Below, piece after piece: positions 27,829-30,638 of a DNA stretch of 30,638 nt; the stretch's first letter is position 1, and each line of letters starts with the position of its first letter. Made by a program: the position numbers and the translations under genes. Below the pieces are notes generated by a model. It was not told where the DNA came from, searched no databases, and saw only the letters and a list, made by a program, of their open reading frames with translations. The DNA comes from an uncultured virus (IMG/VR IMGVR_UViG_3300024518_002726). Its lineage: Duplodnaviria; Heunggongvirae; Uroviricota; Caudoviricetes; Crassvirales. The DNA lies in the IMG/VR virus record IMGVR_UViG_3300024518_002726. One strand, given 5' to 3'.

Positions 27829-28010
27829 TGAAGAAGATCAACTCTTCCTGTGAATGCCAACCATGCAGCCCTAAAACGCCAAGATATACTATAAAGTCCA
27901 AGGGGTCTAGCAGGATACCACTTCCCATCAATCTCTATAAGAGGCTGGTCTACAAATAGATCCTTGTAGTTGCTTTCCCTTAAATTATAGATACTAGGTG
28001 CTTTCTTCAT
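27810..28010 (-). CDS. Small hypothetical phage protein
   Basis: 66 aa, IDGKWYPARPLG...RFRAAWLAFTGRVD; ATGA-coupled to the upstream gene. Confidence 0.6.
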   Translation of the reverse strand: MKKAPSIYNLRESNYKDLFVDQPLIEIDGKWYPARPLGLYSISWRFRAAWLAFTGRVDLLHWPGGQ

Positions 28011-28702
28011 GACACACCTTTTGCAAAGTCAATAGCCATCTCTTTTGCTTCTTCTAAAGTCGTTGCTGTCCACTCTCCTTTACCATAGTCTTCACTCACA
28101 GGATAAACAGCAAATGCACCACCTATCGTTCCTCTTATTTTCTCATTTGGACTTGTATCATCATACTCCCACTCAATATGTATTCCAAACATATCATCTA
28201 TCACCTCCTCTCTTCCTGTCCGAACATTGATATGACCGGGATCTGACCAGAAACGTATCATATCCTGTACGAAATCGTCCTTGTCTCTGGGAACATAGTG
28301 ACAATCTCCTTTCTTACACGTAGACCCTATAGTGAAACCAAAGATTGCCCGGTGGGACCAACCATACCACTTCTGTTCTGCTGGATTAAACCCAACAGCA
28401 CAAGTTGTTCCTTCCGCATCTGGACGTGGCCTTTGGATATCAACAACAATACCTCTCTTCTTCAGGAATTGACCATAGCTACTGGGTCCTATATAGTGCC
28501 CTTCTCGATTATAGGCAGACTTCATCTCAGTCGGTGGATTAACACCATCATCCCATATCTCCTTTCTATAGATATAGGCACCACGATCTATCTCATTCAG
28601 GACTTTCGTTACTGTTATCATTTCTCTAGGGTTTTTATAGGTAGGACCTCCGATAATAACCATCAGTGAGATCTCTACGAGCTTATAGATTACATCCATC
28701 AC
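28007..28702 (-). CDS. Hypothetical phage protein with KWYGWSHRA motif
   Basis: CAVGFNPAEQKWYGWSHRAIFGF and WTATTLEEAKEMAIDFAKGVS; function unknown, start uncertain. Confidence 0.65.
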   Translation of the reverse strand: MMDVIYKLVEISLMVIIGGPTYKNPREMITVTKVLNEIDRGAYIYRKEIWDDGVNPPTEMKSAYNREGHYIGPSSYGQFLKKRGIVVDIQRPRPDAEGTTCAVGFNPAEQKWYGWSHRAIFGFTIGSTCKKGDCHYVPRDKDDFVQDMIRFWSDPGHINVRTGREEVIDDMFGIHIEWEYDDTSPNEKIRGTIGGAFAVYPVSEDYGKGEWTATTLEEAKEMAIDFAKGVS

Positions 28703-29638: not shown

Positions 29639-29672
29639 AAAAAATATTGGTAAAAAATATTGGTAAAAAATA
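29639..29672. repeat. 13-bp tandem repeat AAAAAATATTGGT x2.6
   Basis: Copies at 29639-29651 and 29652-29664, partial copy at 29665-29672. Confidence 0.9.
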
Positions 29673-29794
29673 AGAGGGAGGGCCAAGGGGATTCAACACC
29701 GGGGCTTACTGCTGGCTTCCGAAACCACCCCCACGGGTAAGAACGGGAGCGATTGTCTTAACGGTCTTCATAACAAACCAAATGTACGTGTAAG

Positions 29795-30403
29795 ATGAGA
29801 AACATAGCTCCGATCACAGAAGCTGGAACGTATAACAACGTTCCGGTAGCTTACGTAGCTGACGAGTCTCACATTGATGCAACGCAGGAAGAGCGTGACC
29901 CGGTGAATTATATGTATTCACTGATGGTCGCGGTCTGGGCCTACGATGTCAGTAATGTGAAGGCAGTCGCTGCTGCGCTCAAGAACTACTACGTCGTCAT
30001 CAAGGCGAAGGCTGCATTCTATGCTAAGAATGCGGCTGAGGATGGTTCGTGGCGCATCACTGACCGAGTAAGCGGAGGGGAGAAGATCGAAGGTGTACCT
30101 TTGAATGCTAAGTTGGCGAAAGCCGACGAACAGGCATGGGTTGACCTCACGTCTCTCTTCGTTGTGGGTTCACTCCACTTCTACCGGGACCGTCCCACGT
30201 TCCAGCCTGCCTCTGGTGAAGGCGTCATAGCCGTCATCAGGGAGAGTCAGTCCATGAAGGAAGGCACTGCTCGGTTCAGGCTTGCCAGAATCGAACCAAT
30301 GCCTGCCAAGAACCTCAAGTTCCAAGATGCGGAACAACTGGGCGCTTTGAGTGCTGAGGATCTCGCCAAGTTGAGCGATTTCGTCACCGAAGACTCCGAG
30401 TAG
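29795..30403 (+). CDS. Hypothetical protein, first gene of the divergent (probably early) unit
   Basis: 202 aa, visibly more G+C/C-ending codons than the neighbouring genes, acidic C-terminus, followed by a strong hairpin. Confidence 0.75.
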   Translation: MRNIAPITEAGTYNNVPVAYVADESHIDATQEERDPVNYMYSLMVAVWAYDVSNVKAVAAALKNYYVVIKAKAAFYAKNAAEDGSWRITDRVSGGEKIEGVPLNAKLAKADEQAWVDLTSLFVVGSLHFYRDRPTFQPASGEGVIAVIRESQSMKEGTARFRLARIEPMPAKNLKFQDAEQLGALSAEDLAKLSDFVTEDSE

Positions 30404-30417
30404 GACTGATGATCAGC

Positions 30418-30499
30418 GTATCAAGGGAGGAGGCCAGGGTAAGAAAAGACCTTGGCCTCCTCTTTGGTAAACTAGGGTTCGAATCCCTACATGATACCA
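30418..30499 (+). ncRNA. tRNA-like element (acceptor-like stem + long hairpin + canonical T-arm + CCA)
   Basis: TAGGG-TTCGAAT-CCCTA T-arm at 30473-30489; GTATCAAG (30418-25) pairs with CATGATAC (30490-97) with one mismatch; CCA at 30497-99; no D or anticodon arm. Confidence 0.4.
30427..30465 (+). terminator. 14-bp GC-rich hairpin after the plus-strand gene (possible terminator, short U-tract)
   Basis: GAGGAGGCCAGGGT-AAGAAAAG-ACCTTGGCCTCCTC-TTT. Confidence 0.5.
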
Positions 30500-30638
30500 A
30501 CCCCGAAAGGGAGTGCCAATGGGGAGTGGGAGGCAGTCAGGTGGCTGCAACCTCCGTCTATCTCTCATTCTAGTTGGCAATTGTGTGGTTCATTAACTAA
30601 CCTGAGACAGTCATGAACTTCAGACATGTACCTCAAGA

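What the first reader, a model, noticed from the sequence alone, without database searches (positions are those of the whole stretch)
30418..30499. D-arm-less tRNA mimic with a 14-bp hairpin replacing the D and anticodon arms
Seen: a perfect T-arm (TAGGG-TTCGAAT-CCCTA) stacked on an acceptor-like helix (GTATCAAG/CATGATAC, one A-A mismatch) ending in CCA. Between them lie a 14-bp hairpin with a purine-rich 8-nt loop and a TTTGGTAAAC linker containing a D-loop-like GG. Known: acceptor plus T-arm is what RNase P, RNase Z and the CCA-adding enzyme recognise, as in tmRNA and bacterial Y RNA tRNA-like domains. Inference: not a decoding tRNA, but possibly a processing signal for the upstream mRNA, a decoy for anticodon nucleases, or a new phage ncRNA. 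A tRNA remnant invaded by a terminator is the alternative.
Basis: partly seen in the sequence, partly recalled or inferred. Interest (0 to 1): 0.7.

Follow-up and report, generated by a model that had tools for sequence, protein, structure and literature searches.

The report
tRNA-like fold between crAss-like phage genes
Just after a gene of an uncultured marine crAss-like phage lies an 82-base stretch that copies the top half of a tRNA but has one long hairpin in place of the rest; it is not a working tRNA and most likely marks where the phage message is cut or stabilised, though nothing shows yet that it is used.

Summary
The element has a perfect T-arm, TAGGG-TTCGAAT-CCCTA. It has an 8-layer acceptor-like helix with one A-A mismatch, a 14-bp hairpin with an all-purine 8-nt loop, and a 10-nt GG linker.

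There are two caveats. The first C of 'CCA' is the last pair of the helix, so there is no discriminator base. The acceptor helix also competes with a nearly iso-energetic fold (-40.8 against -39.8 kcal/mol), in which its 5' strand extends the hairpin.

ARAGORN and Rfam call no tRNA, tmRNA, Y RNA or mascRNA. The likeness to tRNA is still not chance. A second non-canonical acceptor plus T-arm element lies 1,013 nt downstream on the same strand, and two such composites arose in 1 of 300 shuffles.

The phage is crAss-like and about 92 kb. Relatives carry true tRNAs, or other odd tRNA-like elements, in the equivalent gene block.

No homologue of the element could be fetched, so there is no covariation test, and no RNA data exist.

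Best reading (about 0.4): a tRNA-derived processing or stability signal, like a plant-mitochondrial t-element or T4 RNAC. Main rival (about 0.3): a decayed tRNA gene joined to a terminator hairpin.

The parts
29795..30403 (+). ORF1, 202 aa, no known family. Its stop codon lies 15 nt before the element, and it is presumably co-transcribed with it.
   Evidence: One search lists the ORF. PHROGs and Pfam give no hit. The word-index search found only the protein itself. HMMER found one 42%-identical 208-aa relative, P0002, and a repeat match in a 2119-aa protein. G+C is 50-57% against about 40% for the phage.
30418..30425 (+). 5' strand of the acceptor-like helix (GTATCAAG).
   Evidence: It pairs with 30490-30497 in 7 of 8 layers. 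Pair probability is 0.29-0.48 in short contexts.
30427..30462 (+). 14-bp G+C-rich hairpin with the 8-nt all-purine loop AAGAAAAG. It is the most stable part of the element and occupies the place of the D and anticodon arms. It may also act as a terminator or stabiliser.
   Evidence: inverted repeat I3. Pair probabilities are 0.82-1.0. The terminator scan did not flag it because its T tail is weak. Its sequence is not repeated elsewhere in the window.
30463..30472 (+). Linker TTTGGTAAAC. It contains a GG, and it is also complementary to the 5' acceptor strand, which gives the alternative extended hairpin.
30473..30489 (+). T-arm: 5-bp stem TAGGG/CCCTA and loop TTCGAAT, containing the canonical GGTTCGAATCC.
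   Evidence: It is the only match in the window at up to 1 mismatch. Pair probabilities are 0.85-1.0. The one population variant, A30489G, keeps the closing pair as U-G (one contig at depth 3.3, which the tool warns may be an error).
30490..30499 (+). 3' strand of the acceptor-like helix (CATGATAC) followed by CA. Read together they give 'CCA', but with no discriminator base.
30500..30612 (+). Structured spacer before the start of the next + strand ORF. The ATG is at 30613, and the ORF runs off the window end.
   Evidence: No sigma-70-type promoter was found on the + strand.

Best explanation
E1 is a tRNA-derived, non-decoding tRNA-like element. It has an acceptor/T-arm minihelix of 8+5 layers, with one 14-bp hairpin where the D and anticodon arms would be.

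It sits inside a block of small, same-strand, probably early or accessory genes of a marine crAss-like phage of about 92 kb.

Inferred mechanism: the element is transcribed as part of the ORF1-ORF2 message. Host tRNA-end enzymes recognise the minihelix, with RNase P cutting at its 5' edge and RNase Z, exonucleases and the CCA-adding enzyme acting at its 3' edge. This punctuates the message. It would set the 3' end of the ORF1 mRNA near 30417 and possibly release a stable RNA of about 80 nt, whose hairpin protects it.

Shown: the sequence anatomy, the absence of a decoding tRNA, the non-random likeness to tRNA, and the gene context. Inferred: transcription, cleavage and any benefit to the phage.
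For: - The T-arm is canonical and the flanks pair.
- A second element, E2 (L029:1431-1513, which is 31079-31161 in window numbering), lies 1,013 nt downstream of E1 (start to start) on the same strand, after the next ORF. It also keeps the acceptor (7 of 7 pairs) and the T-arm (GGTTCGACTCC) but has no proper cloverleaf.
- Two such composites occur in 0.3% of shuffles.
- In both elements the parts that tRNA-end enzymes read are intact, while the decoding parts are gone.
- The E1 hairpin is a new, perfect structure (z = -6.5). That is not what random decay produces.
- Strain variants seen are compatible with pairing. E1 A30489G gives U-G. In E2, 3 of the 8 listed substitutions fall in stems (1432 C>T, 1437 A>G, 1469 A>G) and each gives G-U if the partner is unchanged. 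The other 5 listed substitutions and 2 of the 3 listed indels fall in the unpaired core; the third indel lies upstream of E2.
- Relatives hold tRNA-type genes in the same gene block, divergent from TerL and between small same-strand ORFs. G002 and G004 have tRNA-Arg and tRNA-Leu. G006 has a 60-nt element with an intact acceptor and T-arm that neither ARAGORN nor the Rfam tRNA model calls.
- In 5 complete crAss-like genomes, 10 of 27 GGTTCRANYCC sites lie outside tRNA calls at the gathering score. The reversed-pattern control gave 1 hit.
- No + strand promoter-like site was found anywhere in the 1,697-nt L029 stretch, which covers ORF1, E1, ORF2 and E2, so none lies between E1 and ORF2.
- Plant-mitochondrial t-elements, found through the same motif, do exactly this job (PMC1920247, passages read).
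Against: - There is no evidence that the element is transcribed or cut. No RNA run is listed.
- No homologue of E1 was found, so there is no covariation test.
- The acceptor helix is only marginally favoured over an extended hairpin.
- The geometry departs from a standard RNase P/CCA substrate: 13 layers instead of 12, an A-A mismatch, and no discriminator base before CCA.
- E1 alone is only modestly unlikely by chance (a composite occurs in 11.7% of shuffles).
- The population variants come from single low-depth contigs.
- The promoter scan knows only sigma-70 sites, and a Bacteroidota host or a phage RNA polymerase would use others.
- The hairpin might end transcription before the T-arm is made.
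Confidence: 0.4

Rival explanations
1. E1 is a decayed tRNA gene joined to a working hairpin. A former phage tRNA lost its D and anticodon arms to a deletion or replacement. The 14-bp hairpin serves ORF1 as a terminator or mRNA stabiliser, and the T-arm and acceptor strands are a leftover with no function.
For: - Relatives have true tRNAs in the equivalent block.
- crAss-like genomes hold many orphan T-loop motifs, and several have broken stems or no acceptor helix. Four of 10 have only 2-3 of 5 T-stem pairs, and one has a T-arm only. That pattern looks like decay.
- Other genes of this phage end in comparable hairpins with weak T tails.
- The extended-hairpin fold is nearly as stable as the tRNA-like fold.
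- The ORF1-E1 region has foreign-looking G+C, as expected at a recombination joint.
Against: - A deletion that spares both acceptor strands and a perfect T-arm, seen twice within about 1 kb (E1 and E2), is not what neutral decay predicts.
- The only variant seen in E1, and the 3 stem variants seen in E2, keep pairing.
Confidence: 0.3
2. E1 is a decoy or sponge. The released minihelix RNA soaks up a host factor that acts on tRNA acceptor ends, for example a defence toxin that modifies or cuts the 3' end, or it is bound by a phage protein.
For: - The acceptor/T-arm half is the part that is kept.
- The element lies in an accessory-gene block 1.7 kb from a Tad6 anti-Thoeris homologue.
- T4 makes a stable T-arm-bearing RNA of unknown role (PMC3014915 and PMC9697503, passages read).
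Against: - This is inference from position only.
- No partner protein is identified, and ORF1 has no recognisable fold or family.
- There is no anticodon-like loop, so the anticodon-nuclease form of the idea does not fit.
Confidence: 0.1
3. E1 is a long terminator hairpin followed by a chance T-arm look-alike. The real structure is the 21-22-bp extended hairpin at 30419-30470, and the rest is coincidence.
For: - The alternative fold lies within 1 kcal/mol of the tRNA-like fold.
- One composite occurs in 11.7% of shuffles.
- The 11-mer at up to 1 mismatch occurs in 22 of 100 shuffles.
Against: - E1 has an exact GGTTCGAATCC with a perfect 5-bp stem and flanking complementarity.
- E2 has the same layout nearby on the same strand, and two composites occur in 0.3% of shuffles.
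- The T tail is weak (CTCTTTGG), and the terminator scan did not flag the hairpin.
Confidence: 0.1
4. E1 is an attachment-site remnant. The 3' part would be a copy of the 3' end of a host tRNA gene, left by integration or used as attP.
For: Phages often integrate into tRNA 3' ends, and the T-arm plus 3' strand is the part usually copied (general knowledge, recalled).
Against: - Exact scans of one genome for each of 185,579 species found no tRNA with the E1 3' end or the E2 3' end. These were exact matches only.
- No integrase is among the 21 ORFs scanned.
- An att copy would not bring a matching 5' acceptor strand.
- The same DNA appears in 8 seawater metagenome runs as phage sequence.
Confidence: 0.05

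Closest known systems
t-elements of plant mitochondria (Forner et al. 2007, PMC1920247; passages read)
   Same: Both were found through the same GGTTCRANYCC T-arm motif. Both have a non-canonical cloverleaf with an acceptor-like helix. Both lie directly downstream or upstream of protein genes on the same transcript. In mitochondria the edges of the elements coincide with mRNA ends made by RNase P and RNase Z, and non-encoded C/CA additions are seen.
   Different: t-elements are organellar and E1 is in a phage. There is no sequence kinship. For E1 no RNA ends are known. The single 14-bp hairpin core and the 13-layer stack of E1 are its own features.
Phage T4 RNAC (species 1 RNA), AF158101 70908-71046
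   Same: Folded here, the 139-nt RNA carries a tRNA-type T-arm, CCGGG-UUCGAAU-CCCGG, near its 3' end. That is the same loop as E1, with the 13-nt core GGGUUCGAAUCCC in common. Long foreign hairpins fill the middle and the two ends pair imperfectly. It is a stable phage RNA of unknown role (PMC3014915 and PMC9697503, passages read).
   Different: RNAC is longer, has two core hairpins, and lies inside a true tRNA cluster. Its expression is proven and E1's is not. There is no similarity outside the T-arm.
mascRNA / MEN-beta tRNA-like modules (Rfam RF01684)
   Same: These are tRNA-like folds at the 3' end of a longer transcript, and RNase P cleavage there makes the upstream RNA's 3' end (recalled knowledge). 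The element in relative G006 has this family as its best, though weak, match (18.6 bits, E 0.35).
   Different: These modules are eukaryotic. E1 itself gives no match to RF01684 even at E<=10.
tRNA-like domains of tmRNA and of bacterial Y RNA (YrlA; PMC4201824 seen in a search listing only)
   Same: Acceptor and T-arm are kept, and a long helix stands in place of the anticodon arm.
   Different: ARAGORN finds no tmRNA and Rfam gives no tmRNA or Y RNA match. There is no tag reading frame. No rsr gene was seen among the ORFs scanned. In tmRNA the D-loop stand-in lies 5' of the long helix, whereas in E1 the linker lies 3' of it.

Membership tests
Canonical tRNA (Rfam RF00005 / ARAGORN) | Cloverleaf with a D arm, an anticodon arm with a 7-nt loop, and a score above the family threshold. 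| tested here: not met
   ARAGORN finds 0 genes in the window. Rfam gives nothing at gathering scores. No tRNA-clan match appears at E<=10 in 30200-30638. ARAGORN calls the element only at -ps70, with a 4-base 'anticodon', a shifted acceptor and a 4-bp T-stem.
Canonical tRNA (Rfam RF00005 / ARAGORN) | A T-arm with GTTCRANYC, stacked on a 7-bp acceptor helix, then a discriminator base and CCA. | tested here: inconclusive
   The T-arm is perfect. The acceptor has 8 layers with an A-A mismatch, giving 13 layers rather than 12, and there is no discriminator base before CCA. Acceptor pair probability is 0.03-0.48 depending on context.
tmRNA | A tRNA-like domain plus a tag reading frame and pseudoknots, scoring above the family threshold. 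| tested here: not met
   ARAGORN's tmRNA search found nothing. Rfam gives no match.
Bacterial Y RNA (YrlA) | A match to the family model, an Rsr-binding stem formed by the two ends, and a neighbouring rsr gene. | tested here: not met
   Rfam gives no match. None of the 21 and 9 ORFs scanned is Ro60-like. The rest of the roughly 92-kb genome was not available.
mascRNA-menRNA (RF01684) | A match to the family model. | tested here: not met
   E1 gives no match at E<=10.
t-element-type processing signal (functional class, not a sequence family) | The GGTTCRANYCC motif in a non-canonical tRNA-like fold, next to a protein gene on the same strand. | tested here: met
   The element starts 15 nt after the ORF1 stop codon.
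t-element-type processing signal (functional class, not a sequence family) | RNA ends that coincide with the edges of the element, made by RNase P/Z cleavage and CCA addition. | not testable with these tools
   No RNA run is listed for this DNA. An RNA-end mapping or in vitro cleavage experiment is needed.
T4 RNAC-like stable phage RNA | A T-arm near the 3' end, foreign hairpins in the core, and paired ends. | tested here: met
   The fold of T4 rnaC was compared with the fold of E1. This is a likeness of architecture only. No homology is shown.
Intrinsic terminator | A G+C-rich hairpin followed directly by a run of T. | tested here: inconclusive
   The hairpin is strong, but its tail CTCTTTGG did not pass the scan. 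Other gene-end hairpins of this phage also have weak tails.
tRNA-gene attachment site copy | Identity to the 3' end of a host tRNA gene, with an integrase nearby. | tested here: not met
   There were 0 exact matches in genome contigs for the E1 and E2 3' ends. No integrase was found among the scanned ORFs.

The most novel reading that the evidence does not exclude
crAss-like phages, and perhaps many other phages, use a class of tRNA top-half mimics as punctuation marks in their early or accessory operons. E1, E2, the G006 element and the unannotated crAss001 elements would be members. Host RNase P and RNase Z would cut the message at these marks and release stable small RNAs that may also act as decoys for factors binding tRNA acceptor ends. 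This would be a bacterial-virus counterpart of the tRNA punctuation of mitochondrial transcripts.
Probability: 0.3. Interest if true: 0.65.

Novelty: new variant of a known kind. Interest (0 to 1): 0.4.

Why it matters
If E1 is processed, phages of one of the most abundant viral orders would be using the host's tRNA-maturation enzymes to shape their own messages. That is known for organelles and a few eukaryotic long RNAs, but it has hardly been explored in phages.

It would also give a handle on T4 RNAC, whose role is still described as unknown in the two papers whose passages I read.

In practice, such elements are missed by tRNA finders and left as blank intergenic DNA. The motif survey here suggests they are not rare in Crassvirales: 10 of 27 T-loop motifs lay outside tRNA calls in five genomes.

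If instead E1 is a decayed tRNA, it only records tRNA gene turnover in this phage lineage.

Tried and rejected
**Homologue hunts that found nothing**
- Exact scans of viral contigs with four E1 or E2 sub-stretches.
- Protein-guided locus searches with ORF1, ORF2 and P0002.
- blastn and tblastn against cultured phages.
- The one metagenome scan returned only the same phage (L029).
- Notes from this scan on this genome or on look-alike sequence: none.

**Expression**
- No RNA holder is listed.
- The contigs laid cannot show RNA ends.

**Readings rejected**
- Decoding tRNA, D-armless mitochondrial-type tRNA and intron-bearing tRNA. ARAGORN with -i, -mt and lowered thresholds gave only forced or spurious calls.
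- tRNA-Sec. E2 has a weak 21-bit match (E 0.38, gathering score 47) that comes from the 13-layer stack and a long side hairpin. It has no D stem and no anticodon arm.
- Homology of E1 to a relative's tRNA-Arg and of E2 to its tRNA-Leu. The alignments show little beyond the T-arm.
- A minus-strand reading. There is only a 19.4-bit match to a plastid UTR family (E 0.2), and two -10/-35-like sites overlap the 3' strands of E1 and E2 with no gene to drive.
- Small ORFs overlapping E1 (54 and 55 aa). They have no family.
- The hairpin as a repeated mobile unit. No other copy exists in the window.
- ORF1 function. There is no family, and the Atlas model has pLDDT 0.32.

**Not tried**
- Structure prediction and complex prediction were not run, because ORF1 has too few relatives.

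Full report
**What is there**

- GTATCAAG (30418-25) pairs with CATGATAC (30490-97) in 7 of 8 layers, with A opposite A at 30424/30491.
- GAGGAGGCCAGGGT (30427-40) pairs with ACCTTGGCCTCCTC (30449-62) over 14 bp with one G-T.
- The hairpin loop AAGAAAAG is all purine.
- TTTGGTAAAC (30463-72) links the hairpin to a T-arm: TAGGG, TTCGAAT, CCCTA (30473-89).
- The T-arm contains the canonical GGTTCGAATCC. It is the only match in the window even at one mismatch.

The 82-mer folds at -40.8 kcal/mol with z = -6.5.

Two corrections are needed. First, the 'CCA' uses C30497, which is already paired with G30418. There is therefore no discriminator base, and the next base is A. Second, the acceptor helix is not secure. 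Its 5' strand can instead pair with the linker, lengthening the hairpin to 21-22 bp at -39.8 kcal/mol. The acceptor pairs have probability 0.29-0.48 in short contexts and 0.03 in a 265-nt context. The T-stem and the hairpin stay at 0.82-1.0.

**It is not a known RNA**

ARAGORN finds no tRNA or tmRNA in the window. Rfam finds nothing at gathering scores. At E<=10, Rfam gives 8 weak matches around the element, and none belongs to the tRNA clan. ARAGORN with introns, with mitochondrial models or with lowered thresholds gives only forced calls. E1 appears only at -ps70, with a four-base 'anticodon', among six calls that include ones inside ORFs. E1 is therefore not a decoding tRNA.

**It is still tRNA-like beyond chance**

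A metagenome contig of the same phage (L029) overlaps the window identically over 990 nt. It extends the sequence by 707 bases.

In that extension, after the next ORF (115 aa), lies a second element, E2 (L029:1431-1513).
- Its acceptor GCACCTA/TAGGTGC pairs in 7 of 7 positions.
- Its T-arm is CATGG-TTCGACT-CCATG.
- It has a 7-bp side hairpin with an 8-nt loop.
- It has no usable D or anticodon arm.
- Its best Rfam match is tRNA-Sec at 21 bits, E 0.38, far below the gathering score of 47.

I ran 300 dinucleotide shuffles of window plus tail. One T-arm plus acceptor composite arises in 11.7% of shuffles. Two arise in 0.3%. Both real elements lie on the same strand, in intergenic DNA, just behind + strand ORFs.

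**Context**

The minus-strand block of the window encodes the large terminase, portal and major head protein. The terminase matches 149 phage records, all below 60% identity. These are mostly Crassvirales of Bacteroides together with Flavobacterium and Cellulophaga phages.

ORF1 occurs on six contigs, the longest 92,638 bases. The DNA is held by 8 seawater metagenome runs from 8 studies, 4 of them marked as possible sources of this DNA. This is therefore a marine crAss-like phage.

E1 lies about 0.6 kb into the gene block that diverges from the terminase block. ORF1 has no family. It has one relative at 42% identity. ORF1 and E1 have 50-57% G+C, against about 40% for the rest of the window.

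**Relatives**

None of the 28 terminase-related viral loci contains GGTTCGAATCC. The whole records behind five of them were then searched.
- Two records (39% terminase identity) carry true tRNA-Arg(TCT) and tRNA-Leu(TAA). These lie in the equivalent divergent block, between small same-strand ORFs.
- A third record (30% identity) carries a 60-nt element with a perfect 7-bp acceptor and a T-arm but only a 29-nt core. ARAGORN and the Rfam tRNA model do not call it. Its best weak match is the mascRNA family.

I then surveyed five complete crAss-like or Flavobacterium phage genomes.
- 27 GGTTCRANYCC sites were found, and 17 lie in tRNA calls above the gathering score.
- The other 10 do not. The reversed-pattern control gave 1 hit.
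- Six of the 10 have a full T-stem.
- Three of those six also have a good acceptor helix.

In phage crAss001, an unannotated 0.9-kb gap holds two such items. One is a tRNA with an 82-nt insert in its anticodon arm. The other is a 142-nt acceptor/T-arm RNA with a 103-nt core.

Odd tRNA-like elements are therefore a recurring feature of this phage order. Whether they work or are wreckage is not shown.

**Population data**

Contigs from four runs were laid on L029.
- E1 shows one variant, A30489G, which turns the closing T-stem pair into U-G. It comes from one contig at depth 3.3, which the tool warns may be an error.
- A divergent E2 haplotype has 13 substitutions and 3 indels in 101 nt, and 8 of the substitutions are listed.
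- The three listed changes that fall in stems would all give G-U wobble pairs.
- The other five listed changes, and two of the three indels, fall in the unpaired core; the third indel lies upstream of E2.
- Five further changes near the contig ends are not shown, so true compensation could not be checked.

This is weak support for a maintained fold.

**Interpretation**

The parts that tRNA-end enzymes read are the T-loop, the T-stem and the acceptor stack. These are intact in both E1 and E2, while the decoding parts are absent. In E1 they are replaced by a new, perfect hairpin.

This is the pattern of plant-mitochondrial t-elements. Those were discovered with the same motif, and they direct RNase P and RNase Z to make mRNA ends (PMC1920247, passages read). 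It is also the pattern of T4 RNAC. Folded here, RNAC shows the same T-loop, foreign core hairpins and paired ends. Its role is still described as unknown (PMC3014915 and PMC9697503, passages read).

I therefore favour a processing or stability signal that may yield a small stable RNA, at about 0.4. A decayed tRNA joined to a terminator hairpin stands at about 0.3.

Three other readings rank lower:
- A decoy for factors that bind tRNA acceptor ends.
- A terminator with a chance T-arm.
- An att-site copy. No host tRNA with either 3' end was found in one genome for each of 185,579 species, and no integrase was found.

**Literature**

Searches for phage tRNA-like decoys or processing signals and for crAss-like phages together with RNase P listed no paper on such elements in crAss-like phages. 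The single paper that holds both 'crAss-like' and 'RNase P' is a wastewater survey. These searches cover only the held library.

Earlier AI notes from this scan describe similar tRNA top-half mimics between genes of other uncultured phages. They are leads, not evidence.

**Verdict**

The element is a real tRNA-derived, non-decoding structure, and a new variant of a known kind. Its function is unproven because neither homologues nor RNA data could be obtained.

Noticed in passing
L029:1431-1513 (+), which is 31079-31161 in window numbering, beyond the window end: A second non-canonical tRNA-like element, E2. It has a 7-bp acceptor, the T-arm GGTTCGACTCC, a 7-bp side hairpin with an 8-nt loop, and no proper D or anticodon arm. 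It gives a weak tRNA-Sec match (21 bits). A divergent haplotype exists in one run.
   Followed up: partly
window 28007-28702 (-): A 231-aa protein with a strong match to Pfam Tad6, the Type I Thoeris inhibitor (E 4.7e-43, 147 bits). It is an anti-defence gene 1.7 kb from the element, on the other strand.
   Followed up: no
window 29700-30600: G+C rises to 50-57% over ORF1 and E1, against about 40% across the other 29 kb. This suggests a recently acquired cassette.
   Followed up: partly
window 29640-29672: An A+T-rich tandem repeat, AAAAAATATTGGT twice then AAAAAATAAG, lies upstream of ORF1 in the divergent intergenic region. It may be a promoter of the + strand block.
   Followed up: no
L036:1491-1550 (-), record G006: A 60-nt acceptor/T-arm element with a 29-nt core in a distant relative (30% terminase identity), between small same-strand ORFs. 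It is not called as a tRNA. Its best weak Rfam match is mascRNA-menRNA (18.6 bits, E 0.35).
   Followed up: partly
L022:12298-12414 (+): A 117-nt tRNA-like stretch directly behind a terminator hairpin. It has an 8-bp acceptor, TAAGTGTT/AACACTTA, and the T-arm ATAGG-TTCGATT-CCTGT. The Rfam tRNA score is only 17.1 bits. ARAGORN calls it tRNA-Phe with a 43-nt intron, but only at a lowered threshold.
   Followed up: partly
L072:1201-1597 (-), which is NC_049977.1 96200-96596 (phage crAss001): An unannotated 0.9-kb gap between Gp95 and Gp96 (an 'RNA-binding protein') holds two RNA-like elements. One is a tRNA (46.6 bits) with an 82-nt insert in the anticodon arm. The other is a 142-nt RNA with a tmRNA-like acceptor/T-arm and a 103-nt core (tmRNA model 11.2 bits, far below threshold). 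Two more orphan T-loop motifs lie at 99294 and 99510.
   Followed up: partly
L029:961-1147 and 1516-1636: Strain variation in seawater runs. ORF2 has a second haplotype with 16 differences in 187 nt. In one variant the roughly 120-nt stretch holding a 30-aa hydrophobic ORF behind E2 appears to be absent.
   Followed up: no
P0003 (2119 aa): Residues 83-128 of ORF1 match 12 repeated stretches of a 2119-aa protein, so ORF1 contains a repeat-type module of about 45 aa shared with a giant protein.
   Followed up: no
L011:11650-11718 and L012:8843-8911 (+): ARAGORN reports a 69-nt 'tRNA-???' with a two-base anticodon (tg) in two related contigs, another odd tRNA in this phage group.
   Followed up: no
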